Assembly: GCA_041695325.1 (NCBI GenBank) | Contig: JBGFRC010000001.1 | Coordinates: forward strand, 7,686-71,685 | Origin: Pseudomonadota bacterium | GTDB taxonomy: Bacteria > Pseudomonadota > Gammaproteobacteria > SURF-13 | DNA length: 64,000 nt | Direction: 5' to 3' | Shown: one piece after another, positions 30,941 through 47,982 of the stretch | How positions within the stretch are numbered: the first letter of the stretch is position 1 | Layout: each line of letters begins with the position of its first letter | Translations under genes and position numbers: made by a program | Notes under the pieces: model-generated | Databases searched by the model: none | What the model saw: only the letters and a program-made list of their open reading frames with translations | Told to the model about the DNA's origin: nothing

Positions 30941-31942
30941 GTGAACCGGCAAATGGACCAACCCCTGCGCGTCCTGTTTGGCGGCGATGTCATGCTGGGA
31001 CGCATCGTGGCGCAATACCTCGGGGCGCACGGCGCGGATTATCCTCTCGGCGGGATCGCCGCGCGCATGAGCGCGGCGGACGTGACCGTGGTCAATCTGG
31101 AGTGCGCCATCACCTCCTCCACCCAGCCGTGGCGCGGCGCGCCCAAGGCCTTTTATTTCGGCGCTCCGCCGGAGGCGGCGCAGTCCCTGGAAAATGCCGG
31201 CGTTGATCTGGTGAGCCTGGCCAATAATCACGCCCTGGATTTCGACAGCGAGGGTCTGCTGGATACGCTGCGTCATTTGGATGAACGCGGCATTGCCCAT
31301 GCCGGGGCCGGCCTGAACATGCACGCGGCCTGCTCCCCGGCCTTCGTTGAACGCGAGGGCGTCAAGTTCGGCATGGCGGCCTACTGTGACCATCAGGAAG
31401 ACTTCGCCGCCGGAGACCATCAGCCGGGCATCGCCTATCTGGACCTCGCGGACGAACAACGGGCGCTGGCGGAGATAGGCAAAGCGTGCAACACGCTGCG
31501 CGATAACGGCGCGCACTGGCCCATTTTGTCGCTGCACTGGGGTTCGAACTGGGCGGAGCGCCCTTCAAGCCATTTCGTAAAACTGGCCCGCGCCGCCATA
31601 GACATGGGCTATGGTGTTATCTTCGGCCACAGCGCTCACCTGTTTCAGGGCATCGAGATTTACCGCGGCCGTCCGATCCTCTACGCCGCGGGCGACCTGG
31701 TGGACGATTATTATGTGGACCCCGATTTTCGCAACGACCACCAACTGCTGTTCGAACTGGAGCTCACGCGCGCCTCGCTCCTGCGCATCAACCTGTATCC
31801 GGTCTTTATCGGCGAGTGCCGCACCGAATTCGCCGCCGGAAAGCAGTTTGACTACATCGCCCGGCGCATGACGCGCCTGTGCGCGGAGCTGGGCACGGAG
31901 GTGCGGCGCGCGGAGCATGCACTCTGGATCAACTGCGCCTGA
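30941..31942 (+). CDS. CapA-family (poly-gamma-glutamate synthesis-like) metallophosphatase
   Basis: ...VLFGGDVMLGR...NLECAIT...SLANNHALDF..., the calcineurin-like CapA signature. Confidence 0.7.
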   Translation: MNRQMDQPLRVLFGGDVMLGRIVAQYLGAHGADYPLGGIAARMSAADVTVVNLECAITSSTQPWRGAPKAFYFGAPPEAAQSLENAGVDLVSLANNHALDFDSEGLLDTLRHLDERGIAHAGAGLNMHAACSPAFVEREGVKFGMAAYCDHQEDFAAGDHQPGIAYLDLADEQRALAEIGKACNTLRDNGAHWPILSLHWGSNWAERPSSHFVKLARAAIDMGYGVIFGHSAHLFQGIEIYRGRPILYAAGDLVDDYYVDPDFRNDHQLLFELELTRASLLRINLYPVFIGECRTEFAAGKQFDYIARRMTRLCAELGTEVRRAEHALWINCA

Positions 31943-31950: not shown

Positions 31951-32499
31951 CTAGCCGGCCAGACGGTGTTTGCCGATGCTCACCATTTTTGCCTGCGGCC
32001 CCTCCTCGCCCTGCTCTTCGAGGTACAGCACCTCGGCGCCGATCCGCAGGTGATCAAACGGCGGATGCACCACGCTGTTGCGATGAAAATAAATCTGCTC
32101 GCCGTCCAGCGTTTCGATGAAACCGTAGCCTTCGTCCGGGAACAGTTTGACGATGCGTCCGTGGAGATGTTCCTCATGCGTCTTCACGTCGCCGCGCTGC
32201 TGCCGCGCGTAATCCTCCAGCTGGCGGCCCGCGGCGTTAAACGCGTCGCGCAACGCCACGTACACGTCCTCATCCGGCTGGCGATTCACCGCGATCTCAC
32301 CCCCCGGCACGGTGATATCAATGCGCACATTGTAGAGCTTGCCCTGATGATGATGTTTCTGGGGCATGTCCACCACCACCCGGCAACCCATGATGCGGTC
32401 ATAAAACGATTCCAGCTTTTTCACCTTTTGCCGGATGCGCGCTTCCACGGCCGGAGAAGGGGGCATGTCACGAAAGGTAATTTGCAACGGAATCTGCAT
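31951..32499 (-). CDS. HPF/RaiA-family ribosome-associated protein fused to a C-terminal cold-shock domain
   Basis: N-terminus MQIPLQITFRDMPPSPAVEARIRQKVKKLE... (sigma-54 modulation/HPF fold). C-terminus RIVKLFPDEGYGFIETLDGEQIYFHRNSV, an S1-like CSD motif. Confidence 0.7.
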   Translation of the reverse strand: MQIPLQITFRDMPPSPAVEARIRQKVKKLESFYDRIMGCRVVVDMPQKHHHQGKLYNVRIDITVPGGEIAVNRQPDEDVYVALRDAFNAAGRQLEDYARQQRGDVKTHEEHLHGRIVKLFPDEGYGFIETLDGEQIYFHRNSVVHPPFDHLRIGAEVLYLEEQGEEGPQAKMVSIGKHRLAG

Positions 32500-32603
32500 G
32501 ACGTCACTCCTTGTCTTTTGACGTTTCCACTGTAAGGTAAAAAAACGTCGTCAATCTTTGATCTGGCGCAAGGTTTTCACCCGCATGCTTTTTAAAATCC
32601 ACT

Positions 32604-33635
32604 ATGCATGAAATTGACGGCTCTTACGGAGAAGGCGGAGGGCAACTGGTGCGCACGGCGGTGGCGCTCTCCGCCATGACCGGCCGCGCAATCGCGCTGC
32701 GCAATGTCCGCGCGCGGCGTCCCAAGCCGGGGCTCGCCGCCCAGCACCTCACCGCGGTGCGCGCGGCAGCGGCCCTGTGCCGGGCGGAGATCACCGGCCT
32801 GGAATTAGGCGCGCGCGAGTTCACCTTCCGCCCCGGCAGGCCGCAAGGCGGATACTATGATTTCAACGTGGGTACGGCGGGGAGCGTGGTTCTGGTTTTA
32901 CAGGCGGCGCTGCCGGCCGCGTTTGCCTGCGGGGAGCCGATACACCTGCGTCTTGCCGGTGGCACCGACGTCAAGGCCGCGCCGCCTCTGGATTATTTCC
33001 GTTACGTGCTGTTGCCGCTGCTCTCCAGGATGGGGTTGCCCGTGAACGTCACCGTGCTGCGCCGCGGCTACTACCCGCGCGGCGGCGGCGTGATCGAGGT
33101 GTCGCTGTCGCCGGTGGGGCAACTGCATCCACTCCATCTGGACACATTGGGAGCCGTGCAGGAGATCGAGGGCATCATCCACACCGCCAATCTGGCGGAC
33201 CATGTCGCGGAGCGTATGCGGCAAGCGGCGCTGCGCAGGCTCGAGGGTTTTGCCAACGCGCGCATAGACTGCCGGCGGCTGAGCCGCAGCGAGGCCATAG
33301 GACACGGCGGCGCCATCGTGCTCTGGGCGCGCACGCAGCACGCGCTGCTGGGCGCGGCTTCCACCGCGGAACGCGGCGTGCCCGCGGAGCGCATCGGGGA
33401 GGAAGCGGCCCAGGCCCTGGATGATGAAATCCGCGCCGGCGCGACGATGGATATCCACGCCTCCGACCAACTGCTGATCTATCTCGCGCTGGCGCAGGGC
33501 GCGTCGCGCCTGCTGCTGCGCCGACTCACCTCCCACGCCCAAACCACGCTGTGGCTGCTGCGGCAATTTCTGCCGCTGCGTTTCCAAACCACCCCAAGGG
33601 GAGAGCTGACGTGCCTGGACATCATCCCGCGCTGA
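32604..33635 (+). CDS. rtcA: RNA 3'-terminal phosphate cyclase
   Basis: MHEIDGSYGEGGGQLVRTAVALSAMTGRAIALRNVRARRPKPGL..., canonical RtcA. Confidence 0.9.
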   Translation: MHEIDGSYGEGGGQLVRTAVALSAMTGRAIALRNVRARRPKPGLAAQHLTAVRAAAALCRAEITGLELGAREFTFRPGRPQGGYYDFNVGTAGSVVLVLQAALPAAFACGEPIHLRLAGGTDVKAAPPLDYFRYVLLPLLSRMGLPVNVTVLRRGYYPRGGGVIEVSLSPVGQLHPLHLDTLGAVQEIEGIIHTANLADHVAERMRQAALRRLEGFANARIDCRRLSRSEAIGHGGAIVLWARTQHALLGAASTAERGVPAERIGEEAAQALDDEIRAGATMDIHASDQLLIYLALAQGASRLLLRRLTSHAQTTLWLLRQFLPLRFQTTPRGELTCLDIIPR

Positions 33636-37146: not shown

Positions 37147-37836
37147 TTAACGCACGCCACATTCGAGTACATCGTCCTTTAGCGCCGCGCACATGCGCCA
37201 CATATATTCTTCCTCATAGGCGCTGCGCTGAAGAAAGGAAGGGTCGAGCACCTTATCCGGCAGAAACTTCTGCAGCACGTAACGCCGGGCCCCCTTTATC
37301 AATTTTCCTATCGCCAGAATGTCCTTTTCGTCCAGTTGCGATTTGACCACGGTGGTCCTGAATTCATAGGATACGCCGGAACCCATGACTAATGCAATGC
37401 TGGCGGCGATGTTGCGCGTATCCACGTCCCTATTGATGACCTCCCGGTATTTTTCAAGAGGGGCCTTCACGTCCATGGCGATGTAATCCACCAGCCTGCG
37501 GTCAATTATTTGCTTCAGCGCTTCCGGATTGACGCCGTTGGTGTCAAGCTTCACCAGGAAGCCGAGATTTTTCACCTGGCGCATGAATTCCGGCAAATCG
37601 GCCTGCAGGGTCGGCTCGCCTCCCGTGATGGTGACGGCGTCCAGTATGCCGCAGCGCGTGCGCAAAAAATCAAGCACCTCCTGTTCCGGAATCAACTCCG
37701 CATAGCGCTCGGGCAAGACGAGTTCCGCATTGTAACAATAGCCGCAGCGAAAATCACAGCCGCGGGTGAAGATCACGGCGCAGATTTCGTCAGGGTAATC
37801 TATCAGGGAAACCTTCTGTAATCCTCCGATGTCCAC
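37147..37836 (-). CDS. nrdG: anaerobic ribonucleoside-triphosphate reductase activating protein (radical SAM)
   Basis: CDFRCGYCYN radical-SAM cysteine motif; directly downstream of nrdD. Confidence 0.9.
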   Translation of the reverse strand: MDIGGLQKVSLIDYPDEICAVIFTRGCDFRCGYCYNAELVLPERYAELIPEQEVLDFLRTRCGILDAVTITGGEPTLQADLPEFMRQVKNLGFLVKLDTNGVNPEALKQIIDRRLVDYIAMDVKAPLEKYREVINRDVDTRNIAASIALVMGSGVSYEFRTTVVKSQLDEKDILAIGKLIKGARRYVLQKFLPDKVLDPSFLQRSAYEEEYMWRMCAALKDDVLECGVR

Positions 37837-37838
37837 CG

Positions 37839-39926
37839 CTATACCTTGTACGTCCTTCTGCGCGCAAATTCTTCCTGCTTACCCTTGTTCCACTGGTCGG
37901 TCGGACGTAAATATCCCACGATGCGCGAGTACACCTCGCAGCGCGCGCCGCATTGGGGACACTGCGCGTATTGTCCCGCGAGATAGCCGTGCGCGGGACA
38001 AACACTGAAGGTGGGAGTGAAGGTGAAATAAGGCAGGCGGTAGCGCTCGCAAATCCTGCGCACCAGCTTTTTTATCACCCGGGGCGACTCGATCCTTTCT
38101 CCCACGAAGATATGCAGCACGGTGCCACCCGTGTATTTCGTCTGCAGATCGTCCTGCAGATCCAGCGCCTCAAAAAAGTCATCGGTGTAGTGCACCGGCA
38201 GGTGCGTGGAATTGGTATAAAACGGCTGCGCACCCTTCCTATAATGCTCCTCGTTGGCGCAAATAATATCCGGAAATTTCTTTTTGTCCTTTTGCGCCAG
38301 ACGATAGGCCGTGGACTCCGCCGGCGTGGCCTCGAGGTTATAGTTGTTGCCCGTCTCCTGCTGGAACTCGATGAGCGTGGCACGCATGAAATCGAGTATC
38401 CTGAGCGCGAAGGCGCGCCCGGCCGGGCTCGCGATAGTCTCGCCCAGCAGGTTCAGGCAGGCCTCGTTCATGCCCACCAGGCCGATGGTGGAAAAGTGAT
38501 TCTTCCAGTAGGCGCCGAAGCGCTGTTTGATGTCGCGCAAATAATATTTGACGTAGGGATAAAGCGATTTCTCCGTAAGCCGCTCCAGGGTCTTGCGTTT
38601 GACCTCCAGGCTATCCTTGGCAAGCCGCATCAGGCCGGACAGGCGCTGCTTGAACTCCTCTTCGTCCGCGGAAAGATAGCCCAGGCGCGGCATGTTGATG
38701 GTGACCACGCCGATCGAACCGGTGAGCGGGTTGGCACCGAAGAAGCCGCCGCCCCTGCGCTCCAGCAGGCGGGTGTCTATTCTCAGCCGGCAGCACATCG
38801 AGCGCGCATCTTCCGGCTTCATGTCGGAATTGATAAAGTTGGAAAAGTAGGGCACGCCGTACTTCGCCGTCATGCGCCACAGGCCCTCCAAGTCCGGGTT
38901 GTCCCAGTCAAAATCGCGCGTGACGTTGTAGGTGGGTATCGGGAAAGTGAACACGCGTCCCGCGGCGTCGCCATCCTGCATGACTTCGCAAAACGCCCGG
39001 TTGAACAAATTCATCTCATTCTGGAAATCCTGGTACGGTTTATCCTGCGCCACGCCGCCGATGATGACGCCTTGTCCGGCAAGATAGTCGGGCGGGCGCA
39101 AGTCCAACGTGATATTGGTAAACGGGGTCTGAAATCCGACGCGGGTCGGCACGTTGATATTGAAGATGAATTCCTGCACGGCCTGCTTTACTTCCGCGTA
39201 GTCCAAGCCGTCATAGCGGATAAACGGCGCGAGCAAGGTGTCGAAGTTGGAAAAGGCCTGCGCCCCCGCCGCCTCGCCCTGCAGGGTATAAAAGAAATTC
39301 ACCACCTGTCCCAGCGCGCTGCGGAAATGCCTGGCGGGGCGGCTTTCTATTTTTCCCTGCACGCCTTTGAAACCCTGCGTCAGCAGATCGGTGAGGTCCC
39401 ATCCCACGCAGTAAACCGAGATGGCGTTGAGGTTGTGGATGTGGAAATCGCCGTCCGCATAGGCCTGCCTGATTTCCGGACTGTAGACTTTATTGAGCCA
39501 ATAGACCTTGCTGACTTCGGATGAAATATAGTTGTTGAGCCCCTGCAGGGAATAGGTCATGTTGCTGTTTTCGCTCACCTGCCAATCGAGCTGCCGCAGA
39601 TAATGATCCACCAGCTCAACGTCAGCCTTGGCGATGATTTCGCGCAGCGCCGCGTGTTGCGCGCGATAGAGGATGTAGGCCTTGGCGGTGGCATGATAGG
39701 GCGAGGACAACAGCACCTCTTCCACCGCATCCTGGATTTCCTCCACGCTCGGCGTCCTGGCGCCCAGCTTCCGGTGCGCGGCGTCCACTACCTCGGCGGT
39801 CAACGCCTCGGCGACGTCAGGGCCGAATTCGCCCGTGGCCGTTCCCGCGCGCGCGATGGCGCGAGTGATTCTGGCGGCGTCAAAGGCCGTTACCGTCCCA
39901 TCGCGCTTGATGATGGCTTCAAACAT
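37839..39926 (-). CDS. nrdD: anaerobic ribonucleoside-triphosphate reductase (class III RNR)
   Basis: 695 aa; C-terminal Zn ribbon CPAHGYLAGQYAQCPQCG and glycyl-radical region ...SRIVGYL... Confidence 0.93.
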   Translation of the reverse strand: MFEAIIKRDGTVTAFDAARITRAIARAGTATGEFGPDVAEALTAEVVDAAHRKLGARTPSVEEIQDAVEEVLLSSPYHATAKAYILYRAQHAALREIIAKADVELVDHYLRQLDWQVSENSNMTYSLQGLNNYISSEVSKVYWLNKVYSPEIRQAYADGDFHIHNLNAISVYCVGWDLTDLLTQGFKGVQGKIESRPARHFRSALGQVVNFFYTLQGEAAGAQAFSNFDTLLAPFIRYDGLDYAEVKQAVQEFIFNINVPTRVGFQTPFTNITLDLRPPDYLAGQGVIIGGVAQDKPYQDFQNEMNLFNRAFCEVMQDGDAAGRVFTFPIPTYNVTRDFDWDNPDLEGLWRMTAKYGVPYFSNFINSDMKPEDARSMCCRLRIDTRLLERRGGGFFGANPLTGSIGVVTINMPRLGYLSADEEEFKQRLSGLMRLAKDSLEVKRKTLERLTEKSLYPYVKYYLRDIKQRFGAYWKNHFSTIGLVGMNEACLNLLGETIASPAGRAFALRILDFMRATLIEFQQETGNNYNLEATPAESTAYRLAQKDKKKFPDIICANEEHYRKGAQPFYTNSTHLPVHYTDDFFEALDLQDDLQTKYTGGTVLHIFVGERIESPRVIKKLVRRICERYRLPYFTFTPTFSVCPAHGYLAGQYAQCPQCGARCEVYSRIVGYLRPTDQWNKGKQEEFARRRTYKV

Positions 39927-39966
39927 CGCTCCGGCTCACTCCTTGCGGCAACACGGCATTAACCGC

Positions 39967-40362
39967 TCACAGGCGCGGCGTCGCCTCGTGCGCGTAGGTC
40001 TTTTCACGCTGGCTTTGACAGGTGAAGCAGCGTTTGGCGGTGGGATAGACGCTGAGCCGCTCGTAGCCGATGTCGCCGCCGCAATCAATGCAGACGCCGT
40101 AGCTCAAGTCGGCCAGGCGCAGCCACGCCGCTTCGATGTCGCGGATTTCCTGGATCTGGCGGTCAAACAGGGCGGCGTCCATGTCCGCCAGCATGTCGGC
40201 CACCGATTCATCGCCGATATCCAATACGCCCGAAACCAGGTCGGCATAGTGCTTTTCTCCGGAACGAATCAGCTCCGCGCGCGCCTCGTCGCGCAGTTTG
40301 GTGAAATTGTTGTTCAGCAGTTGACGCAGTTGCTTCAACTGCGCGTTGGTCAGATTGGCCAT
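39967..40362 (-). CDS. TraR/DksA-family C4 zinc-finger regulator
   Basis: C-terminus CIDCGGDIGYERLSVYPTAKRCFTCQ, a four-Cys DksA/TraR finger; ~131 aa. Confidence 0.8.
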   Translation of the reverse strand: MANLTNAQLKQLRQLLNNNFTKLRDEARAELIRSGEKHYADLVSGVLDIGDESVADMLADMDAALFDRQIQEIRDIEAAWLRLADLSYGVCIDCGGDIGYERLSVYPTAKRCFTCQSQREKTYAHEATPRL

Positions 40363-40533: not shown

Positions 40534-40547
40534 TTGATGTAGATCAA
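40534..40547. promoter_or_regulatory. perfect FNR-type box TTGAT-GTAG-ATCAA in the divergent region between the dksA-like/nrdDG genes and the dodecin gene
   Basis: Sequence ttgatgtagatcaa matches TTGAT-N4-ATCAA. The spacing suits a class II promoter with a taaact -10 for dodecin (ATG at 40612) and a tatctt -10 on the other strand. Confidence 0.5.
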
Positions 40548-40611: not shown

Positions 40612-40815
40612 ATGCCGCATATACTGAAAGTGATCGAGGTGCTCGCCGAGTCGGATAAGAGCTGGGAAGACGCGGCAGGGCAAGCCATAGCCCGTGCGGC
40701 CAAAACCCTGCACGGCATCAAATCCATCTACATCAAGAATTTCGAGGCCAAGGTGGAAAACAACAAAATCATCAGCTACCGCATCAATGCAAATATTTCA
40801 TTCCTGCTGGATTAG
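40612..40815 (+). CDS. dodecin-family flavin-binding protein
   Basis: MPHILKVIEVLAESDKSWEDAAGQAIARAAKTLHGIKSIYIKNFEAKVENNKIISYRINANISF, the 67-aa dodecin fold. RBS aaaggagg 6 nt upstream. Confidence 0.75.
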   Translation: MPHILKVIEVLAESDKSWEDAAGQAIARAAKTLHGIKSIYIKNFEAKVENNKIISYRINANISFLLD

Positions 40816-40838: not shown

Positions 40839-41477
40839 TCAGCGGCCTTGCTTGCCGTCGCGCAGAATGGCAACCACCTCCTCGTCTTCCACCTGGGGGA
40901 AATCGAGATAAAACTGCCCCACCGCCTGGAAATACTCCGGTGTGTGCAGGCAGATCACCTCGTCGGCGTAGCCGGCAACCTTGCGCAGCGTATCGGGCGG
41001 CGCCACCGGCACGGCGGCGATCAATTTCTCCGGCTTCTTGGCGCGCAGCGCGTGCAGGGCCGAGATCATGGTGGCGCCCGTGGCCAGGCCGTCGTCCACC
41101 ACGATCACGACGCGGCCTTGCGGGTCCACCGGGGGGTGCACCGGCGTATATTGGGCGCGGCGCTTGCGCATGGTCGCAAGCTGGGCCTGCTTCTCGCGTT
41201 CAATGTATTCAGGGGTGGCGCCCACGCTCGCGGCATAATCCGCAATATAGGTCCAGCCGCTCTCATCCACTGAACCGATGGCGAATTCGGGGCTGCCCGG
41301 CGCGCTGATTTTCCTGACCAGCACCACGTCCATCTCGCCGCCCAGTTCATCGGCGATCAATTTCGCCATGGGCACTGCGCCGCGCGGGATGGCGAGAATT
41401 AAAGGATCCCTGCCCCGGTAATGAGCAAGCTTTTCGGCAAGCCGCCGCGCGGCTTCACCGCGATTTTTAAAGATCAT
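40839..41477 (-). CDS. phosphoribosyltransferase-family protein (type I PRTase fold)
   Basis: MIFKNRGEAARRLAEKL... and PRPP-binding loop VVIVVDDGLATGATM; ~212 aa. Confidence 0.75.
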   Translation of the reverse strand: MIFKNRGEAARRLAEKLAHYRGRDPLILAIPRGAVPMAKLIADELGGEMDVVLVRKISAPGSPEFAIGSVDESGWTYIADYAASVGATPEYIEREKQAQLATMRKRRAQYTPVHPPVDPQGRVVIVVDDGLATGATMISALHALRAKKPEKLIAAVPVAPPDTLRKVAGYADEVICLHTPEYFQAVGQFYLDFPQVEDEEVVAILRDGKQGR

Positions 41478-41509
41478 GCTGTCCCCTCCCGCCAAAAAGC
41501 AATTAATCG

Positions 41510-42361
41510 TTACAGCGCGTGCGCAAGCTGCCGGGCGATGCCGGCCACGCGCACCTTGTGCGGAACCATCGTATCGAGCGTGTCGCTCACCAAAATCCCG
41601 TCAATCGGGGCCTTGGCCAGAATGGCGCGGCTCGGCGCGGAGAAGATCGCGTGCGTCGCGGCCACGGTAATGGACTTGGCGCCCTGTTGCTTCAGCAATG
41701 CCGCGGCGGAGGCGATGGTGCGCCCGGTGTCTATCATGTCGTCCACCATCAGCGCCCTTTTCCCCGCGACCGGGTAGCGCGCCGCGCCGCGCGCGACGAT
41801 ATCGTGACTGGGGCGGCGCTTGGGGATGGTGATGACGGGCAAGCCCTGCGCCACCTCCTCCGCGCGCTGTTGCGCGCCTTGATCGGGCGCGACGACGATA
41901 TCCGTTTTTCGCACAACGCTGCGCACCATATCCGGCAGGCACCGCAGCTCGATGTGAGGAGCAAGCATGGCGCGCAGCGCATCACTGTGCAGGTCCACAA
42001 ACACCCTGCGCCGCGCGGGAATGCGGTTTACGATCCCGGCCATCATGCGCGCCAGCACCGCCTCGCCTTTTTCCGACTGCCGGTCCTGACGGCTGTAGCC
42101 GAGATAGGGAATACAGAGCGCGGCGATGGTAATACCGCTGTCCTCCAAGGCCTGCGCCAGCGCCAGCAGCTCAAACAGCGAGTAAGGCGCGGGCGTGATG
42201 TTGCCCAGCAATATAGCCGAGGCGGGCTTCCTGGAAAATTTGAGCCGGAAATAATACTCGCCGTCCGCAAATTGCCTGACTTCATAGTGCAACAGGCGGC
42301 AATGCATACAGCGCGCGATTTTGCGCGCCAGGCCCAGGCAATTTTTTGCCGCCAGTATCAC
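41510..42361 (-). CDS. ribose-phosphate pyrophosphokinase (PRPP synthetase) family protein, divergent
   Basis: ...ALCIPYLGYSRQDRQ... and ...LMVDDMIDTGRT..., the Prs motifs. 283 aa with an atypical N-terminus. Confidence 0.8.
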   Translation of the reverse strand: MILAAKNCLGLARKIARCMHCRLLHYEVRQFADGEYYFRLKFSRKPASAILLGNITPAPYSLFELLALAQALEDSGITIAALCIPYLGYSRQDRQSEKGEAVLARMMAGIVNRIPARRRVFVDLHSDALRAMLAPHIELRCLPDMVRSVVRKTDIVVAPDQGAQQRAEEVAQGLPVITIPKRRPSHDIVARGAARYPVAGKRALMVDDMIDTGRTIASAAALLKQQGAKSITVAATHAIFSAPSRAILAKAPIDGILVSDTLDTMVPHKVRVAGIARQLAHAL

Positions 42362-42373
42362 CGTTTGGACGCC

Positions 42374-43807
42374 TCAGCCCTTGACGCACGCCTTGGGGCG
42401 CAGGAAAGCGACGCGCCGGGCGAGACCCGCCTTTTCCGTCGCCTCGGCCACCAGGTCCACGTCCTTATACGCGCCCGGCGCCTCTTCCGCCGCGCCGCGC
42501 ATGGAACGGGTGCGGATCAGGATGCCGTGCTCGGCCAGCTCGTCAATCAGCTCGCGTCCGCGCCAATGACGCAGCGCCTGATGGCGGCTCATGGAACGCC
42601 CCGCGCCATGGCTGGCCGAGGAGTAGGCCTTGATCTCGCTCTCCGCCGTGCCCGCCAGCACGTAGGAGCCGGTGCCCATGCTGCCGCCGATGATGACCGG
42701 CTGCCCCGTGTCGCGATAGCGTTCGGGAATGGCGGGATGCCCCGGGCCGAAGGCGCGCGTCGCGCCCTTGCGGTGCACGTGCAGCACGCGCTGCTTGCCG
42801 TTTACCTTGTGCTTCTCCACCTTGCAAGTGTTGTGCGATATGTCGAATAATGTTTCCAGCATGGCGTCCGGCAGCATGCGCGCGAACACTTCGCGCGTGA
42901 GGTGCGTCAGGATTTGACGATTGGCAAGCGCGCAATTGATGGCGGCGTTCATCGCGCCGATATACTGCTGCCCTTCCGGCGAATTGATCGGCGCGCAGGC
43001 CAGCTCGCGATCCGGTAAGGAAATTCCCAGACGCGCGGCGGCCTTGGCGAGCGAAACCAGATACTCGGTGCCGATCTGATGCCCCAGGCCGCGCGAGCCG
43101 CAGTGGATGGAGACCACGATCTGGCCCTGGCGCAGACCAAAAGCCCGCGCGGCCGGCTGATCGTAAATACGATCCACCACCTGCACTTCCAGATAATGGT
43201 TGCCCGACCCCAACGTACCCATCTCGCCGCGCTGGCGTTTCTTGGCGTAATCCGAGACGTTCTCAGGCACGGCGCTCGCCACGCAGCCGTTTTCTTCCAC
43301 ATACTCCAGGTCTTCCGGCACGCCATAGCCTTGTTTGACCGCCCACGCCGCCCCGCCCTTCAGCACCTGGTCAAGCTGCGCCGGGGCGAGCTTGAGCCGC
43401 CCTTCTTCGCCCACGCCCGCCGGGATAGTGTGATACAGGGCGTCGGCCAGGTCCTTTAACCTGGGCGTGACCGCGGGCAAATCGAGATTGGTGCGCAGGC
43501 AACGAATACCGCAGGAAATATCGAAACCCACGCCGCCCGCGGAGATGATGCCGCCCTGCTCGGCGTCAAACGCCGCCACGCCGCCGATGGGGAAGCCATA
43601 GCCCCAGTGCGCATCCGGCATGGTCATCGCGGCACCCACCAGACCGGGCAGCTTGGCGACGTTGGTGATCTGCTCCAGCACCTTGTCGTCCATGCTGGCC
43701 AGCAACGGCTCGCTGCCATACAGACATACCGGCGCGCGCTGCTCGCCGGCAGCGAGCGGCACACTCCAGCGATAATCATCTATCTTCTGCAAACGCCGCA
43801 TATCCAT
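42374..43807 (-). CDS. rtcB: RNA-splicing ligase RtcB
   Basis: MDMRRLQKIDDYRW...HCGSRGLGHQIG...ASHGAGR, canonical RtcB. Start at the internal Met to avoid a 56-nt overlap with archease. Confidence 0.93.
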   Translation of the reverse strand: MDMRRLQKIDDYRWSVPLAAGEQRAPVCLYGSEPLLASMDDKVLEQITNVAKLPGLVGAAMTMPDAHWGYGFPIGGVAAFDAEQGGIISAGGVGFDISCGIRCLRTNLDLPAVTPRLKDLADALYHTIPAGVGEEGRLKLAPAQLDQVLKGGAAWAVKQGYGVPEDLEYVEENGCVASAVPENVSDYAKKRQRGEMGTLGSGNHYLEVQVVDRIYDQPAARAFGLRQGQIVVSIHCGSRGLGHQIGTEYLVSLAKAAARLGISLPDRELACAPINSPEGQQYIGAMNAAINCALANRQILTHLTREVFARMLPDAMLETLFDISHNTCKVEKHKVNGKQRVLHVHRKGATRAFGPGHPAIPERYRDTGQPVIIGGSMGTGSYVLAGTAESEIKAYSSASHGAGRSMSRHQALRHWRGRELIDELAEHGILIRTRSMRGAAEEAPGAYKDVDLVAEATEKAGLARRVAFLRPKACVKG

Positions 43808-43841
43808 TGCGCTACCCTCTTTCTTTGGCGTTATGTGTGAA

Positions 43842-44249
43842 TCAAACATCCACCACGCAGCGCGCCTCCCAGCGGCCGTTCTTGCGCGTAACCGCAAGCA
43901 TGGTGAGCGTCGCTCCTTTTACCTCCACGCCGCGCTCCAAACCCTTGCGCCACGGCTCGCCCCACGCCTGTGCCTGCCATTGCTCGCCCTTCCTGTGTAA
44001 TTCAAAGCGTCCTAAAACCAGGCCTTGGGTCTGCGCCTCGGTGAGCAGGCGATTCAGCCAGGTGACGAACGCCAGCTCGGTGTCGGCCTCCGTGAAGCTG
44101 AACTCAATGTGGCGCGTATTGCGTACCCCGGCGATGGCCACCATGACGGCAAACATCGCTTGCGCGGCCGCGACAAAGGCCTCTTCCACCGTTTTCCCGT
44201 AACCGGTAATGCCGATGTCGGCCTCGTGGTCAAAATAGTCGTAATTCAT
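43842..44249 (-). CDS. archease (RtcB activator)
   Basis: MNYDYFDHEADIGITGYGKTVEEAFVAAAQAMF..., the archease signature. Immediately upstream of rtcB. Confidence 0.85.
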   Translation of the reverse strand: MNYDYFDHEADIGITGYGKTVEEAFVAAAQAMFAVMVAIAGVRNTRHIEFSFTEADTELAFVTWLNRLLTEAQTQGLVLGRFELHRKGEQWQAQAWGEPWRKGLERGVEVKGATLTMLAVTRKNGRWEARCVVDV

Positions 44250-44377
44250 TCCAGGATTAACCCTAGCACAGCCACGCTCGGCATTTGTTTGATCTAGCGC
44301 AAAGCAAGGCAACAATCACTGGCGGTGCGGCCAGCCGCGCTATAAAATTGAAAACAAGCGTCCCAGAGGAGAGCCGC

Positions 44378-44623
44378 ATGTGCCTGGCGATTCCCATGCA
44401 GATCGTGGACATACACGCGCACACCGCGCGCTGCAACGCCAACGGCGTAGAGCGCACGGTAAACCTTTTCCTGATGCAGGAAACACCGCTTGCGGCGGGC
44501 GATTTTGTGATGGTGCACGTAGGCTATGCCATCCAGAAAATCACCCTGCGCGAGGCGCGCTCGGCGTGGCAGCTTTACGATGAGATGCAATCCGCGGAAC
44601 AGGAGGGCGGTTCTCATGCATGA
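44378..44623 (+). CDS. hypC: hydrogenase maturation chaperone HypC/HybG family
   Basis: N-terminal MCLAIPMQIVDI..., the essential Cys2 motif; 81 aa. Confidence 0.9.
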   Translation: MCLAIPMQIVDIHAHTARCNANGVERTVNLFLMQETPLAAGDFVMVHVGYAIQKITLREARSAWQLYDEMQSAEQEGGSHA

Positions 44624-44999
44624 ACTGTCCATCTGCCGCGCGCTCATCCGGCAAATCGAGACCCTGGCAAGACAGCATCTGGCGCAGGCGGTCACGCGCG
44701 TCACGCTGCAAATCGGCCCGCTTTCCGGCGTGGCACCGGAACTGCTGGAGCAGGCCTTTTACGCCACGCGCGAGGGCACGCTGGCCGCGGAGGCGCGCCT
44801 GACAACAGTGCATGCGCCGGTCCGCGTGCGTTGCGAACAGTGCGGCGCGGAGAGCGCAGCGGAGATCCATCGCCTCACCTGCGCCCAATGCGGTGGCTGG
44901 CGCACGCGGCTCATCAGCGGCAATGAAATGCAACTGGTGAGCGTGGAGCTGGAGGGCGGCGATGCCGCCCCCTCAAACGAGGAAGCGGCTTATGTGTAA
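44616..44999 (+). CDS. hypA: hydrogenase nickel insertion metallochaperone HypA
   Basis: MHELSICRALI... with zinc-ribbon CEQCG...CAQCG; 127 aa. Overlaps the hypC stop. Confidence 0.9.
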   Translation: MHELSICRALIRQIETLARQHLAQAVTRVTLQIGPLSGVAPELLEQAFYATREGTLAAEARLTTVHAPVRVRCEQCGAESAAEIHRLTCAQCGGWRTRLISGNEMQLVSVELEGGDAAPSNEEAAYV

Positions 45000-45771
45000 C
45001 ACCTGCGGCTGCACCGTCACCCCCGCCAATCAACACCTTATCTACCGGCCTGTCGAGCAACAACAGCGCACCCTGCCCGTGTTCCATCGCCTGCTCGCGG
45101 AAAATGACGCGCAGGCCGCGCACAACCGCGCGCATTTCGACGCGCACGGCGTGCTGGCCGTGAATCTCATGTCCTCCCCCGGCGCGGGCAAGACAGCGCT
45201 GCTGGAGGCGACCATAGCCGCGCTGCGCGATGAAATGCGGATGGCAGTGATCGAAGGCGACCTGGAAACGGAAAACGACGCCGATCGCATCCGCGCCCAG
45301 GGCGTGCCGGCGGTACAGATCACCACCGGCGCCGCCTGTCACCTGGATGCGCGCATGGTGCACGGCGCGCTGCATCAAATTGATCTGGCCGGGGTAGACA
45401 TTGTCTTCATCGAGAACGTCGGCAACCTGGTGTGCCCGGCGAGCTTTGACCTGGGCCAGCATCGCAACGTGGTGCTGCTCTCGGTCACTGAGGGAGACGA
45501 CAAACCCGCCAAGTACCCGGTGATGTTCCGCGCGGCGGACCTGGTGCTGCTGACCAAAACCGATCTGCTGCCGCATCTGGATAATTTTGACCCCACGCAA
45601 GCGGAGCGATACTTACGCCGGCTTGCCAATCCCGCGCCGCTGTGGCTGCTCTCCTCCAAAAAAATGACCGGCCTTGAACCTTGGCTCAACTGGCTGCGCA
45701 AGCACGCGCGCAAGGCGTCTCCTCCGGTTCATGCCGGCGTTGCACTTTTTTTCACTCCCAATCACGCATGA
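44992..45771 (+). CDS. hypB: hydrogenase nickel incorporation GTPase HypB
   Basis: N-terminal MCNTCGC Ni-binding motif and P-loop SSPGAGKTALL. Confidence 0.9.
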   Translation: MCNTCGCTVTPANQHLIYRPVEQQQRTLPVFHRLLAENDAQAAHNRAHFDAHGVLAVNLMSSPGAGKTALLEATIAALRDEMRMAVIEGDLETENDADRIRAQGVPAVQITTGAACHLDARMVHGALHQIDLAGVDIVFIENVGNLVCPASFDLGQHRNVVLLSVTEGDDKPAKYPVMFRAADLVLLTKTDLLPHLDNFDPTQAERYLRRLANPAPLWLLSSKKMTGLEPWLNWLRKHARKASPPVHAGVALFFTPNHA

Positions 45772-46874
45772 CAGCCCTCTCCGCCCAAGACTGGCTGGAA
45801 AAAATCCGCGCGCTGCCGCTGCGGCGGAAAGTGCGCATCATGAACGTGTGCGGCGGGCACGAGCGCACCATCACGCTGAGCGGATTGCGCCACGCGCTGC
45901 CCGCCAACATCGAGCTCATCCCCGGCCCAGGCTGTCCGGTGTGCGTGTGTCCCGAAGAAGACGTGTACGAGGCCATCCAGCTTGCGCGCCTGGAGCACGT
46001 CATCCTGTGCGTCTTCGGCGACATGCTGCGCGTGCCGGTGAACGCGCCCAAGGGAGACGTACGCTCCCTGGAGCAGGCCAAGGCCGCGGGCGCGGACGTC
46101 CGCCCCGTCGCCTCGCCCGCCGAGGTGGTGCAAATCGCCCGTGCCCATCCGCAACGTCCGGTGGTGTTCTTCGCCGCCGGATTCGAGACTACCATGGCGC
46201 CGCTGGCCGCGATGCTGGCGCAGGGCACGCCGGACAATCTGTTCCTGCTGCTCTCCGGACGCCTGACCTGGCCCGCGGTGGCAATGTTGCTTGCCTCCGG
46301 TGCGCCCGGCTTCGATGCGCTCATCGCCCCCGGTCACGTGTCCACCATTATGGGGCCTGAACAATGGCGCTTCGTGGCGGATGAACATCATATCCCCGCC
46401 GCGATTGGCGGCTTCACGCCCGAAACACTGCTCGCCGCGATGTATTCCACGCTGCGCCAGATCAGCGAAGGCGAATGCTTTCTCGATAACTGCTATCCCG
46501 AAGTGGTGCTGCCGGGCGGCAATACGAGCGCGCAAAAATACCTGGCCGCAACCCTGCAAGTAACGGACGCCACGTGGCGCGGAATCGGCGTGATTCCCGC
46601 GTCGGGATATGCGCTCAAGGAACACCTGCGGGACAAAGACGCACGGCGGCGCTTTTCCTTTCCCTGTAATACCCGCCGCAAACGCATGGGTGAAATGCCG
46701 CCCGGCTGCGACTGCGCCAAGGTGGTGCTGGGCAAGATTTATCCGAACGCGTGCACGCTCTACGGCCGCGCCTGCACGCCGCGCACCCCCATCGGCCCGT
46801 GCATGGTCTCGGACGAAGGCGCCTGCCGCATCTGGTGGGCGGGCGGTGTGCGCGCGGAGACCGAGGCGGTATAA
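45768..46874 (+). CDS. hypD: hydrogenase formation protein HypD
   Basis: MTALSAQDWLEKIRALP...CGGHER...GPGCPVCVCPEE..., the HypD CGxH and CPVC motifs. Confidence 0.95.
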   Translation: MTALSAQDWLEKIRALPLRRKVRIMNVCGGHERTITLSGLRHALPANIELIPGPGCPVCVCPEEDVYEAIQLARLEHVILCVFGDMLRVPVNAPKGDVRSLEQAKAAGADVRPVASPAEVVQIARAHPQRPVVFFAAGFETTMAPLAAMLAQGTPDNLFLLLSGRLTWPAVAMLLASGAPGFDALIAPGHVSTIMGPEQWRFVADEHHIPAAIGGFTPETLLAAMYSTLRQISEGECFLDNCYPEVVLPGGNTSAQKYLAATLQVTDATWRGIGVIPASGYALKEHLRDKDARRRFSFPCNTRRKRMGEMPPGCDCAKVVLGKIYPNACTLYGRACTPRTPIGPCMVSDEGACRIWWAGGVRAETEAV

Positions 46875-46878: not shown

Positions 46879-47982
46879 ATGCGCCCGATTTTTCATCCGC
46901 AACTGGTCAACGATCCCTTCGGCGACCCCGGCGTGTACGTGGAATTCCTGTTTGAAAAGCGCGCGCTGCTGTTTGACCTGGGCGACCTGCGCGCGCTTGC
47001 GCCACGCAAGATTCTGCGCCTGAGTCACGCGTTCGTATCGCACACCCATATGGATCACTTCATGGGCTTCGATCAATTGCTGCGCATATGCCTCGGCAGG
47101 GACAAGAAGCTCAGCCTGTACGGGCCGCCTGGATTCATCGAGCAGGTCCATCACAAGCTCGCCGCCTACACCTGGAATCTCGTGCAGAATTATCCCGCCG
47201 ACTTTACCCTGGAAGCATTTGAGATTCACCCCGGCGGACAGCTCGATGCGGTTGAGTTTCACTGCCGGCATGGTTTTCAACGCGAGCGCGCACGCACGTC
47301 CGCCATCACTGGCGATATCCTCGTTGATGACCCCGCCTTTCGCGTGCATGTGGCGTTTCTGGATCACAAGACCGCGTGTCTTGCTTTTGCTCTGGAGGAA
47401 AAGCAGCACGTCAACGTGTGGAAAAACCGCCTGCAGGAGCAGGGGCTTGCCGTCGGGCCGTGGCTCAAGGATTTAAAGCACGCGCTGTTGAGCGGCGCAG
47501 CCGACGATACGCCGCTCGCCGTGCAGTGGCATGGGGTGAACGGCGGACGGGAAAAATACCTGCCGCTGGGCCTGCTCAAAACCAACATTCTGCGCATCGT
47601 GCCGGGACAGAAAGTGGCTTACGTCACCGATGTCATCTATCATCCGGAAAACGCAAAGCGCATCGTGGAGCTGGCCCGTGACTCCGACCTGCTGTTCATC
47701 GAATGCACCTTTCTGGAAGAAGATGCCGCGCGCGCGATGGAAAAATATCACCTCACCGCGCGTCAGGCGGGCGCATTGGCGCGCGCGGCCGGCGCGAAGC
47801 GGGTCATTCCGTTTCATTTTTCGCCGAAATACGCCGGCCAGCCGGAGCGGCTCACGCAGGAATTGGCGCGGGCATTTTCCCCGCCGCCTGCCTGTGCGTC
47901 GCCTGCTTGCGCGCTGCGCGCAGGCAAGCACGCGGACAGGCGCGCGGAGGCGCCTGCGCGGAATGCCCTATCGCTCCTCTGA
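46879..47982 (+). CDS. MBL-fold metallo-hydrolase (RNase Z/ElaC-like)
   Basis: HAFVSHTHMDH beta-lactamase-fold motif; ~367 aa. Start at the internal Met MRPIFHPQLVN, 5 nt after the hypD stop. Confidence 0.75.
   Translation: MRPIFHPQLVNDPFGDPGVYVEFLFEKRALLFDLGDLRALAPRKILRLSHAFVSHTHMDHFMGFDQLLRICLGRDKKLSLYGPPGFIEQVHHKLAAYTWNLVQNYPADFTLEAFEIHPGGQLDAVEFHCRHGFQRERARTSAITGDILVDDPAFRVHVAFLDHKTACLAFALEEKQHVNVWKNRLQEQGLAVGPWLKDLKHALLSGAADDTPLAVQWHGVNGGREKYLPLGLLKTNILRIVPGQKVAYVTDVIYHPENAKRIVELARDSDLLFIECTFLEEDAARAMEKYHLTARQAGALARAAGAKRVIPFHFSPKYAGQPERLTQELARAFSPPPACASPACALRAGKHADRRAEAPARNALSLL

What the first reader, a model, noticed from the sequence alone, without database searches (positions are those of the whole stretch)
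40839..44249. Tight operon archease-rtcB-(PRPP synthetase-like)-(phosphoribosyltransferase) detached from rtcA
Four minus-strand genes are separated by 34, 12 and 32 nt. RtcB and archease are the RNA ligase and its activator. The two downstream genes encode a divergent Prs-family protein with an atypical N-terminus and a small type I PRTase-fold protein. This is a pair that could make PRPP and transfer the phosphoribosyl group to a base or an RNA end. rtcA lies 10 kb away on the other strand, and no rtcR is visible. Coupling an RNA-repair ligase to a dedicated PRPP-generating and PRPP-consuming pair is not a described arrangement, and it sits directly divergent from the hyp cluster.
Basis: inference. 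Interest (0 to 1): 0.6.

Follow-up and report, generated by a model that had tools for sequence, protein, structure and literature searches.

The report
RNA-repair plus PRPP-salvage stasis operon
A real four-gene operon joins the RNA ligase RtcB and its activator archease to a stripped-down PRPP synthase and an uncharacterised phosphoribosyltransferase. It most likely belongs to a low-oxygen/dormancy gene island like those known in Mycobacterium and Burkholderia, not to a new RNA-repair chemistry.

Summary
Four minus-strand genes, archease, rtcB, a Prs-like gene and a PRTase gene, are separated by 34, 12 and 32 nt and are divergent from hypCABD. The operon is conserved in at least four related uncultured proteobacterial MAGs.

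The PRTase belongs to the uncharacterised TT1426 (PDB 1WD5) family. The Prs-like protein keeps all catalytic motifs but lacks the C-terminal and allosteric module of housekeeping Prs.

Prs-like and PRTase form a module of their own. In about 7 of 9 lineages they are adjacent or near each other, often with a DLH-type hydrolase. These lineages include CPR bacteria and an archaeon, usually without RtcB.

RtcB/archease lies near the PRTase in only 6 of 80 betaproteobacterial loci, and near the Prs-like gene in one further lineage. In those loci the neighbours are HPF, HSP20, USP, PncA/PncB and DksA. The M. tuberculosis DosR regulon likewise lists RtcB and a putative PRTase.

A CRP/FNR-type box, TTGATCYRGCGCAA, precedes both the archease operon and the detached rtcA.

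My reading is co-regulated stasis functions (RNA repair plus PRPP-dependent salvage), not direct chemical coupling. This is a new variant of a known kind, of moderate interest. The PRTase substrate remains unknown.

The parts
43842..44249 (-). archease (135 aa), first gene of the operon
   Evidence: PF01951 E=4.7e-37, full-length match. The N-terminal DHEADIG motif is read from the sequence.
42374..43807 (-). RtcB RNA 3'-phosphate/2',3'-cyclic-phosphate ligase (477 aa), archaeal/eukaryal-like type
   Evidence: PF01139 E=4e-169 over model positions 1-426. Its best NCBIfam similarity is to the archaeal-type RtcB model rather than E. coli RtcB (622 vs 164 bits). The SHGAGR and DISCG motifs are present.
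41510..42361 (-). Truncated PRPP-synthase paralogue (Prs-like, 283 aa, GTG start)
   Evidence: TIGR01251 gives 191 bits, above the cut-off of 113, but the protein falls below all equivalog cut-offs. The FADGE, RQDR, DLHS, PDxG, KRRP and DDMIDTGxT motifs are conserved. The C-terminal ~17 aa and the class I regulatory-loop residues are missing. E. coli Prs is the best PDB hit for this protein at 106 bits; B. subtilis Prs is the best hit for the subfamily profile at 206 bits.
40839..41477 (-). TT1426-family type I phosphoribosyltransferase (212 aa), substrate unknown
   Evidence: PF00156 E=1.6e-22. There is no NCBIfam equivalog. It matches PDB 1WD5, 'hypothetical protein TT1426', at E=2e-47 over its full length. 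The PRPP loop VVIVVDDGLATGATM is invariant in alignment A1.
44289..44302 (.). CRP/FNR-type box TTGATCTAGCGCAA in the hypC/archease divergent promoter region, 40 nt upstream of the archease ATG
   Evidence: The same box sits at the same place in L004. The hybrid motif TTGATN4CGCAA occurs 13 times against 1.5 expected in 1.43 Mb of loci.
32558..32571 (.). Second copy of the box (TTGATCTGGCGCAA, 13/14 identical) between the HPF-CSD gene and rtcA, 33 nt upstream of the rtcA ATG
32604..33635 (+). rtcA (RNA 3'-phosphate cyclase), detached but carrying the same upstream box
   Evidence: PF01137/PF05189 on the identical gene in L005 and its relatives. The tblastn panel confirms the position.
31951..32499 (-). 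Ribosome hibernation factor fused to a cold-shock domain (HPF-CSD)
   Evidence: PF02482 plus PF00313.
30941..31942 (+). PGA_cap-family protein (the Pfam family I recall for M. tuberculosis Rv0574c, a DosR-regulon gene)
   Evidence: PF09587 E=7e-66. Rv0574c is listed as a DosR-regulon gene in PMC5309233; that review does not give its Pfam family, and I did not test the assignment.
37147..40362 (-). dksA/traR-like gene, nrdD and nrdG (anaerobic ribonucleotide reductase and its activase), directly downstream of the operon region
   Evidence: Pfam annotation of the identical genes in L005, the tblastn panel and NCBIfam DksA-like matches.
40534..40547 (.). Perfect FNR/Anr-type palindrome TTGATGTAGATCAA between dksA-nrdDG and the dodecin gene
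   Evidence: (0 mismatches) and sequence.
40612..40815 (+). Dodecin gene, convergent with the PRTase gene (23 nt between the stop codons)
   Evidence: PF07311 on the identical gene in L005. Sequence.
44378..46874 (+). hypC-hypA-hypB-hypD hydrogenase maturation genes, divergent from archease
   Evidence: Pfam annotation of the same genes in L005 and ORFs.
46879..47982 (+). RNase Z-subfamily metallo-beta-lactamase protein. Its homologue lies between the PRTase gene and archease-rtcB in L041.
   Evidence: NF002558 gives 474 bits against a cut-off of 315. L041 arrangement; homology.
62251..62860 (-). HSP20/alpha-crystallin gene with a perfect FNR-type box (62847-62860) upstream
   Evidence: tblastn with the L008 HSP20. 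Box.

Best explanation
The four genes form one transcription unit inside a low-oxygen/stasis gene island. The other members of the island are hyp, nrdDG, dksA-like, HPF-CSD, PGA_cap, rtcA, an RNase Z-like gene and HSP20.

Shown:
- The operon structure.
- Its conservation in related MAGs.
- The family assignments.
- The recurrence of its parts in similar islands in other lineages.

Inferred:
- A CRP/FNR-family regulator switches on the archease operon and the detached rtcA together, through the shared TTGATCYRGCGCAA box.
- RtcB, with archease and with RtcA preparing the ends, reseals RNAs that carry 3'-phosphate or 2',3'-cyclic-phosphate and 5'-OH ends and that accumulate in non-growing cells.
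- The truncated Prs paralogue makes PRPP from ribose-5-phosphate and ATP. Because it lacks the C-terminal and allosteric module, it is not shut down by ADP when energy charge is low, as the housekeeping class I enzyme would be.
- The TT1426-type PRTase uses that PRPP to salvage a base, not yet identified, that is released by RNA and nucleotide turnover. In sister islands PncB does the equivalent job for nicotinate.

On this reading RNA repair and PRPP-dependent salvage are co-expressed parts of a dormancy toolkit. They are not consecutive steps of one reaction.
For: Operon: the gaps are 34, 12 and 32 nt, with ribosome-binding sites and no internal terminators. The order is conserved in L001, L002 and L004.

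Operator: one perfect FNR-type palindrome lies in the dksA-nrdDG/dodecin intergenic region and another upstream of the HSP20 gene. The variant box lies upstream of archease/hypC and of rtcA/HPF. Of the five sites with perfect half-sites, four are intergenic. The variant box is conserved upstream of archease in L004. It also occurs upstream of PRTase genes in L038 and L089. The hybrid motif has 13 hits against 1.5 expected.

Recurrence of the same gene set with RtcB/archease:
- L041: PRTase, RNase Z-like, archease, RtcB, PncA, PncB.
- L065: PncB, PncA, HPF, USP, RtcB, archease, then PolX and PRTase.
- L073 and L087: archease-RtcB divergent from the PRTase gene.
- L008 (Nitrospirota): Prs-like, archease, RtcB, DksA, HPF-CSD, HSP20, PncA and PncB within 17 kb.
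- L174: Prs-like, archease, RtcB and a CRP/FNR regulator.

Prs-like/PRTase as an independent module.

The Prs-like protein is catalytically intact but lacks the regulatory C-terminus and regulatory loop.

Precedents. The DosR regulon lists Rv2631 (RtcB), Rv0571c (putative PRTase), Rv0570 (RNR), Rv0573c (nicotinamide recycling), Rv0574c and Rv0079 (ribosome-associated factor) (PMC5309233). The Burkholderia lxa low-oxygen locus has an Anr/Fnr-like motif, alpha-crystallin, an RNR and a ribokinase that feeds PRPP (PMC3721108).
Against: There are no expression data.

A canonical FNR box is not enriched upstream of the PRTase gene in 76 betaproteobacterial loci. No CRP/FNR regulator and no USP gene is encoded in the window.

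The commonest neighbours of close PRTase homologues are a DLH-type hydrolase (44 of 80) and the AmmeMemoRadiSam genes (about 37 of 80). These are not classic dormancy genes.

I did not test whether Rv0571c belongs to the same PRTase subfamily. I showed only that PRTase-DLH fusions of ~440 aa are abundant.

Loss of allosteric control is inferred from the sequence, not measured. The PRTase substrate is unknown, so 'salvage' is a generic guess.
Confidence: 0.55

Rival explanations
1. Direct biochemical coupling. The Prs-like/PRTase pair serves RtcB itself. It could regenerate GMP/GTP (RtcB's guanylylation cofactor) from free guanine when de novo synthesis is off. Alternatively it could phosphoribosylate an RNA end or a damaged base as part of repair.
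For: The operon is tight, with apparent translational coupling. Linkage of the PRTase or Prs-like gene with archease/RtcB recurs in several arrangements and in at least three lineages, well above the <1% expected for random placement within 10 kb. In L173 the Prs-like gene was lost together with archease, RtcB and RtcA.
Against: 74 of 80 close PRTase homologues have no RtcB within 10 kb. The Prs-like/PRTase(/DLH) module occurs without RtcB in CPR bacteria, an archaeon and others. In L173 the PRTase stays intact after RtcB, archease and Prs are lost. From established knowledge, RtcB chemistry has no PRPP-dependent step. The usual fusion or operon partner of the PRTase is a hydrolase, not an RNA enzyme.
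Confidence: 0.1
2. Accidental operon. A mobile Prs-like/PRTase module landed downstream of rtcB in the ancestor of one small clade and is simply read through. Apart from sharing a promoter, there is no functional relationship with RNA repair or with the island.
For: The full four-gene operon was seen only in one clade, whose Prs-like proteins are 63-86% identical. The gene order Prs->PRTase is inverted relative to the PRTase->Prs order seen elsewhere. The Prs-like protein evolves faster (63% identity) than RtcB (87%) or the PRTase (83%) between the window and L001. L173 shows that the parts can be lost separately.
Against: Independent RtcB-PRTase and RtcB-Prs-like proximity in Nitrosomonadales-type and Nitrospirota-type genomes, with different intervening genes, argues for selection on linkage. 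The box is also shared with rtcA and with PRTase genes in other genomes.
Confidence: 0.2
3. Adps-like chemistry. The truncated Prs does not make PRPP. Instead it pyrophosphorylates another ribose-5-phosphate-containing molecule, such as ADP-ribose, as phage Adps does in NARP1. The PRTase then joins a base to that product, rebuilding NAD or a related dinucleotide during stasis.
For: Like Adps (about 280 aa), the protein lacks the C-terminal alpha11-alpha12 module and has a remodelled regulatory loop (PMC13586617). NAD-salvage genes pncA and pncB sit in sister islands.
Against: The protein is clearly closer to cellular Prs than to phage Prs-like proteins. It scores 106 bits at full length against E. 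coli Prs and 191 bits against TIGR01251. Phage Prs-like proteins of 88-kb coliphages, which I took as Adps candidates without confirming them, give about 63 bits over 63% of the length. Its PP-loop region (PDxGAxxRA) looks canonical. The partner is a type I PRTase, not a NAMPT-family Namat. There are no PADLOC or anti-defence signals.
Confidence: 0.07

Closest known systems
M. tuberculosis DosR (DevR) dormancy regulon
   Same: It contains an RtcB (Rv2631) and a putative, uncharacterised PRTase (Rv0571c). It also has an oxygen-independent RNR (Rv0570), a nicotinamide-recycling enzyme (Rv0573c), Rv0574c and a ribosome-associated hypoxia factor (Rv0079) (PMC5309233). From memory, Rv0574c is a PGA_cap-type protein and the regulon also includes alpha-crystallin. 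The window carries counterparts of all of these.
   Different: The regulator type differs: DosR is a NarL-type response regulator, whereas here the operator is a CRP/FNR-type box. In M. tuberculosis the genes lie in separate blocks and no Prs paralogue is listed. I did not test whether Rv0571c is orthologous to the window PRTase.
Burkholderia cenocepacia lxa low-oxygen-activated locus
   Same: It is a proteobacterial island induced by low oxygen. It has an Anr/Fnr-like TGA-N6-TCA motif, alpha-crystallin and an oxygen-independent RNR. It also has a ribokinase proposed to feed PRPP and nucleotide synthesis (PMC3721108).
   Different: That paper mentions no RtcB, archease or TT1426-type PRTase. 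The lxa locus is rich in USP genes, and the window has none.
E. coli rtcBA operon with RtcR
   Same: It has the same RNA-repair enzymes, an RtcB ligase and an RtcA cyclase.
   Different: Here rtcA is unlinked and on the opposite strand, there is no RtcR or sigma-54 activator, an archease is present, and the RtcB is of the archaeal/eukaryal type.
Thermus thermophilus TT1426 (PDB 1WD5) / PRTase-DLH fusion family
   Same: The window PRTase aligns end to end with 1WD5 (E=2e-47). The family is widespread, and its members are often adjacent to or fused with a dienelactone-hydrolase-type domain.
   Different: No DLH partner is present in the 64-kb window. Here the partner is the Prs paralogue, and the operon is shared with RtcB.
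Class III (archaeal) PRPP synthases and phage Adps
   Same: These are short (about 280-290 aa) Prs-fold enzymes without the C-terminal and allosteric module.
   Different: By sequence the subfamily profile is nearer to bacterial class I Prs (206 bits) than to archaeal class III structures (160-165 bits). It is far from phage Prs-like proteins. It scores below the NF002095 equivalog cut-off (178 vs 296).

Membership tests
RtcB-archease RNA ligation system | Full-length RtcB domain with the catalytic His (HGAGR) and the metal-binding Cys/His motifs | tested here: met
   PF01139 E=4e-169 over model positions 1-426. The SHGAGR, DISCG and DAHWGYGFPIGG motifs are read from the translation.
RtcB-archease RNA ligation system | Archease gene adjacent to rtcB | tested here: met
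   PF01951 E=5e-37, 34 nt upstream of rtcB.
E. coli-type rtcR-rtcBA regulon | rtcA co-operonic with rtcB, and a divergent sigma-54 activator RtcR | tested here: not met
   rtcA is at 32604-33635 on the other strand. No Sigma54_activat or CARF protein is found among the ORFs scanned.
Housekeeping class I PRPP synthase (Prs) | Catalytic motifs (FxDGE, RQDR, DLH, PDxGG, KRR loop, DDxxDTGGT) | tested here: met
   All are conserved in alignment A5. TIGR01251 gives 191 bits against a cut-off of 113.
Housekeeping class I PRPP synthase (Prs) | C-terminal helix module / allosteric ADP-site residues (..SVSxLF) and the regulatory-loop motif; score above the equivalog cut-offs | tested here: not met
   The protein ends ~17 residues before the class I sequences, and its regulatory loop reads RQSEKGEAV instead of RKDQPRVAI. 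It falls below all class I equivalog cut-offs, for example 164 vs 297.
Class III archaeal PRPP synthase | Short form without the allosteric site; membership of the archaeal equivalog NF002095 | tested here: inconclusive
   The length and missing module fit. However, NF002095 gives 178 bits against a cut-off of 296, and the subfamily profile scores higher on bacterial class I structures.
Phage Adps (NARP1 ADP-ribose pyrophosphokinase) | Closer to Adps than to Prs; partnered with a NAMPT-family Namat | tested here: not met
   Phage Prs-like proteins give about 63 bits at 30% identity over 63% of the length, against 106 bits for E. coli Prs. The partner is a type I PRTase. Acceptor specificity cannot be tested with these tools.
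TT1426/COG1926-type PRTase | End-to-end similarity to TT1426 and an intact PRPP-binding loop | tested here: met
   1WD5 E=2e-47, query residues 1-206 against chain residues 1-204. The VVDDGLATGxTM loop is invariant.
TT1426/COG1926-type PRTase | Association or fusion with a dienelactone-hydrolase-type domain | tested here: not met
   No DLH homologue is found in the window, although 44 of 80 homologous loci have one and fusions are abundant.
Low-oxygen / dormancy island (DosR-regulon-like, lxa-like) | Co-location of ribosome hibernation factor, alpha-crystallin, oxygen-independent RNR and RNA-repair/salvage genes | tested here: met
   HPF-CSD, HSP20, NrdDG, RtcA/B, PGA_cap and Prs/PRTase are all in the window.
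Low-oxygen / dormancy island (DosR-regulon-like, lxa-like) | Common oxygen-responsive operator upstream of the transcription units | tested here: inconclusive
   There are two perfect FNR-type boxes and two near-identical variant boxes in the relevant intergenic regions, and the variant motif is enriched across loci. However, no enrichment of the canonical box is seen upstream of the PRTase gene in 76 loci, and no regulator has been identified.
Low-oxygen / dormancy island (DosR-regulon-like, lxa-like) | Induction under hypoxia or stasis | not testable with these tools
   This needs expression data from the organism, which is an uncultured MAG, or from a cultured relative.
Anti-phage defence system | Match to known defence-system protein models | tested here: not met
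   PADLOC gives only PRPP-loop-level hits of 18-22 bits.

The most novel reading that the evidence does not exclude
The truncated Prs and the TT1426-type PRTase could be a so-far unrecognised accessory arm of RtcB-type RNA repair. They might make PRPP locally to rebuild the guanine nucleotide cofactor. Alternatively they might phosphoribosylate an RNA end, a nucleobase lesion or a repair intermediate. Either way PRPP chemistry would be mechanistically tied to RNA resealing in dormant cells.
Probability: 0.08. Interest if true: 0.8.

Novelty: new variant of a known kind. Interest (0 to 1): 0.4.

Why it matters
The natural role of bacterial RtcB is still debated. Here, and in several unrelated lineages, archease-RtcB sits with ribosome hibernation factors, small heat-shock proteins and PRPP-dependent salvage enzymes. 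In this window it sits behind a CRP/FNR-type box that is also found in front of rtcA. That points to RNA resealing as part of survival in and exit from oxygen-limited stasis, and it gives a concrete promoter element to test.

The work also delineates a widespread, uncharacterised module that reaches from archaea and CPR bacteria to proteobacteria. The module joins a TT1426-type PRTase and a stripped-down PRPP synthase, usually with a DLH-type hydrolase. Its substrate is unknown, and a putative PRTase of possibly the same kind (Rv0571c) is listed in the M. tuberculosis dormancy regulon.

Tried and rejected
It returned mostly generic Prs; only L092-L097 were in the subfamily, and L094 was the only useful one.
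2. A canonical FNR box upstream of the PRTase gene in 76 loci showed no enrichment over random windows. I therefore dropped the claim that the PRTase family as a whole is FNR-regulated.
3. Defence-system reading: PADLOC gave only trivial PRPP-loop hits, and PHROGs matched only a generic Prs family.
4. Adps/NARP1 reading: phage Prs-like proteins are much more distant than cellular Prs, and no Adps chain appeared among the PDB hits.
5. I searched the window for RtcR, a CRP/FNR regulator, USP, DLH and AmmeMemoRadiSam genes. None was found.
6. Literature searches for an RtcB/archease plus PRTase/Prs association, or for a function of TT1426/Rv0571c, found no such description and no assigned function.
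7. I did not obtain the Rv0571c sequence. Its orthology with the window PRTase rests on annotation and on the abundance of PRTase-DLH fusions, not on a direct comparison.
8. Structure prediction was not run, because a solved homologue (1WD5) already covers the PRTase and it would not reveal the substrate.

Full report
OBSERVATION

- Archease, 43842-44249: PF01951, E=5e-37.
- RtcB, 42374-43807: PF01139, E=4e-169, full length. It resembles the archaeal-type RtcB model more than E. coli RtcB (622 vs 164 bits).
- Prs-like protein, 41510-42361, GTG start: it carries the PF13793, PF14572 and PF00156 domains. On TIGR01251 it scores 191 bits, above the subfamily cut-off of 113, but it is below every equivalog cut-off.
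- PRTase, 40839-41477: 212 aa, only the generic PF00156 domain and no NCBIfam equivalog.

The gaps are 34, 12 and 32 nt. Shine-Dalgarno-like sequences precede rtcB and the PRTase gene, and no credible minus-strand terminator lies in the gaps. hypC begins at 44378 on the opposite strand. rtcA is at 32604-33635 (+). No RtcR-like sigma-54 activator is found among the ORFs scanned across the window.

The window matches a MAG contig (GCA_041695115.1). The same four-gene order, flanked by the same hyp, dodecin, dksA-like, nrdDG, rtcA, HPF and PGA_cap genes, recurs in other MAGs whose Prs-like protein is only 63-65% identical (L001, L002/L012, L004).

WHAT THE TWO 'PRPP' GENES ARE

The PRTase aligns end to end with Thermus thermophilus TT1426 (PDB 1WD5, deposited as 'hypothetical protein'; E=2e-47). 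Its PRPP loop is intact. The family is large, and I found no assigned function in the literature.

The Prs-like protein keeps every catalytic motif of PRPP synthase: FADGE, RQDR, DLHS, PDxG, the KRRP loop and DDMIDTGxT. It is ~10 residues shorter at the N-terminus, and it lacks the last ~17 residues of class I enzymes (..SVSxLFD). It also has a different regulatory-loop sequence.

Archaeal class III enzymes are a similarly short form. A 2026 structural paper describes the same streamlining for phage Adps, which has lost the C-terminal alpha11-alpha12 module and has degenerate allosteric sites (PMC13586617).

By sequence, however, the protein is nearer to genuine cellular Prs than to phage proteins. 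It scores 106 bits against E. coli Prs, and the subfamily profile scores 206 bits against B. subtilis Prs. The Prs-like proteins of ~88-kb coliphages give about 63 bits over two-thirds of the length.

Only about 20 protein clusters in the 5.8-billion-protein collection are at least 46% identical to it. I therefore infer that it is a sporadic paralogue, not the housekeeping enzyme.

NEIGHBOURHOODS OF THE PRS-LIKE GENE

I sampled about nine independent lineages of the Prs-like subfamily.
- The PRTase gene is directly upstream and overlaps by 4 nt in a Uhrbacteria genome (L010) and in two metagenomic contigs.
- A PRTase-DLH hydrolase-Prs operon occurs in L094, next to an HSP20 gene, and in an archaeon (L176).
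- In L175 a DLH-PRTase pair lies about 4 kb from the Prs-like gene, and a USP gene lies next to the Prs-like gene.
- Only the window clade has RtcB in the same operon.
- A Nitrospirota-type lineage has archease-rtcB about 3 kb downstream of the Prs-like gene, with different intervening genes in its two members. I treat L008 and L174 as one lineage because their RtcBs are 93% identical.
- One context (L009) has neither gene nearby.

So Prs-like and PRTase, usually with the DLH hydrolase, form a conserved module in their own right. Natural PRTase-DLH fusions of ~440 aa are abundant.

NEIGHBOURHOODS OF THE PRTASE GENE

I retrieved 80 species-level loci whose PRTases are 67-83% identical to the window protein. 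Most are betaproteobacterial.
- Archease and/or RtcB lies within 10 kb in 6 of the 80. The Prs-like gene is adjacent only in the window's own clade.
- The commonest neighbours are the DLH-type hydrolase (44 of 80) and the three AmmeMemoRadiSam genes (36-37 of 80). The latter are confirmed by TIGR04335/6/7 scores above their cut-offs.
- HSP20 (11 loci), HPF-CSD (6), PncA/PncB (4) and PGA_cap (3) also recur.

The RtcB-positive loci show three different arrangements.
- L041: PRTase, RNase Z-like, archease, RtcB, PncA, PncB, all on one strand.
- L065: PncB, PncA, HPF, USP, RtcB and archease on one strand, then PolX and the PRTase on the other.
- L073 and L087: archease-RtcB directly divergent from the PRTase gene.

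Six of 80 is far above the <1% expected for random placement within 10 kb, but it remains a minority.

One relative gives a natural experiment. L173 (GCA_016853205.1) retains only remnants of archease (the first ~40 codons, of which ~19 align at protein level) and of RtcB (residues 347-446). It has lost the Prs-like gene and rtcA, and its PGA_cap gene is fragmented. It keeps a full-length PRTase (79% identical), the dodecin gene, dksA, nrdDG and HPF. The PRTase therefore does not depend on RtcB or on the Prs paralogue. This is MAG data, so some caution is needed.

REGULATION

The window has two perfect FNR/Anr-type palindromes. One, TTGATGTAGATCAA at 40534, lies between dksA-nrdDG and the dodecin gene. 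The other, TTGATATAGATCAA at 62847, lies upstream of the HSP20 gene.

It also has two near-identical variant boxes. TTGATCTAGCGCAA at 44289 is 40 nt upstream of the archease ATG, in the region shared with hypC. TTGATCTGGCGCAA at 32558 is 33 nt upstream of the rtcA ATG, in the region shared with the HPF-CSD gene.

Of the five sites with perfect half-sites, four are intergenic and sit in front of island genes. The variant box is at the same position upstream of archease in L004 and is degenerate in L001. Across 1.43 Mb of fetched loci the hybrid motif occurs 13 times against 1.5 expected. These include TTGATCCAGCGCAA 112 and 178 nt upstream of PRTase genes in L038 and L089.

Read from the sequence, the spacing to plausible -10 elements (TAGGGT and TAAAAT) fits class II CRP/FNR-type promoters with very short leaders. 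This is inference.

Two results count against a simple picture. The canonical box is not enriched upstream of PRTase genes in general, and no CRP/FNR regulator is encoded in the window.

COMPARISON WITH KNOWN SYSTEMS

A review of the M. tuberculosis DosR regulon lists the following members (PMC5309233):
[quoted passage not shown] - Rv0570, a ribonucleotide reductase.
- Rv0573c, involved in nicotinamide recycling.
- Rv0574c.
- Rv0079, a ribosome-associated hypoxia factor.

The Burkholderia cenocepacia lxa locus is a proteobacterial low-oxygen island. It has an Anr/Fnr-like motif, alpha-crystallin, an oxygen-independent RNR and a ribokinase, which its authors link to PRPP supply (PMC3721108). 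The window carries counterparts of nearly all these functions.

I found no paper describing an archease-rtcB-prs-PRTase operon.

INTERPRETATION

The best-supported reading (about 0.55) is that the operon is one transcription unit of a stasis/low-oxygen island. In that island RNA resealing (RtcA, RtcB, archease), ribosome hibernation, anaerobic dNTP supply and PRPP-dependent salvage are co-expressed.

The Prs paralogue plausibly supplies PRPP when the ADP-sensitive housekeeping enzyme is throttled. The PRTase then consumes that PRPP to salvage a base that has not been identified.

Three rivals remain:
- Direct chemical coupling to RtcB (about 0.1).
- An accidental insertion of the Prs/PRTase module downstream of rtcB in one clade (about 0.2).
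- Adps-like non-PRPP chemistry (about 0.07).

The linkage is real and recurrent, but the pair is not dedicated to RtcB, and nothing supports action on RNA ends.

VERDICT

This is a new variant of a known kind, of moderate interest (0.4). The most useful leads are the shared operator in front of the archease operon and rtcA, and the widespread, uncharacterised PRTase-(DLH)-Prs module.

Noticed in passing
window 46879-47982 (+); L041 10677-11696: The metallo-beta-lactamase gene after hypD belongs to an RNase Z subfamily (NF002558, 474 bits against a cut-off of 315). Its homologue lies between the PRTase gene and archease-rtcB in L041, so another RNA-processing enzyme travels with this island.
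   Followed up: partly
window 31951-32499 (-); also L001 14307-14855, L008 15327-15917: The ribosome hibernation factor is fused to a C-terminal cold-shock domain (S30AE + CSD, 182 aa). The same architecture recurs in Nitrospirota-type and betaproteobacterial islands next to RtcB or PRTase genes.
   Followed up: partly
L173 5820-6919 (GCA_016853205.1): This is a decayed version of the locus. It has an archease remnant and an RtcB fragment (residues 347-446) fused in frame to an intact PRTase gene. The Prs-like gene and rtcA are absent and PGA_cap is fragmented. The dodecin gene, dksA, nrdDG and HPF are intact.
   Followed up: yes
L012-L091 (80 PRTase loci): Close homologues of the PRTase are most often next to a DLH-type hydrolase (44 of 80) and the three-gene AmmeMemoRadiSam system (36-37 of 80). 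The function of that system is also unknown, and this association may be worth its own study.
   Followed up: partly
L176 6721-8858 (archaeal contig, GCA_964459835.1); L094 157-2417: A PRTase-DLH hydrolase-Prs three-gene operon with overlapping start and stop codons occurs in an archaeon and in a bacterial metagenomic contig. The module therefore crosses domains.
   Followed up: partly
window 40534-40547 and 62847-62860: Two perfect FNR/Anr-type palindromes (TTGATNNNNATCAA) are present. One lies between dksA-nrdDG and the dodecin gene. The other lies upstream of the HSP20 gene, downstream of a HycI-like hydrogenase protease gene.
   Followed up: partly
window 51844-58721: A Fic-family gene and a type I restriction-modification system (hsdR, hsdM, hsdS) lie between hypE and an M90 peptidase gene. 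They look like an insertion into the hyp/hydrogenase region.
   Followed up: no
window 20674-25740: A cluster of ECF sigma factor, NrsF-type anti-sigma, a small ORF, an MbnB/TglH/ChrH (DUF692) enzyme, DoxX and DUF3179. It is a stress-responsive cluster unrelated to the finding.
   Followed up: no
window 40815-40839: The dodecin and PRTase genes converge with only 23 nt between their stop codons and no recognisable hairpin. How either transcript terminates is unclear.
   Followed up: no
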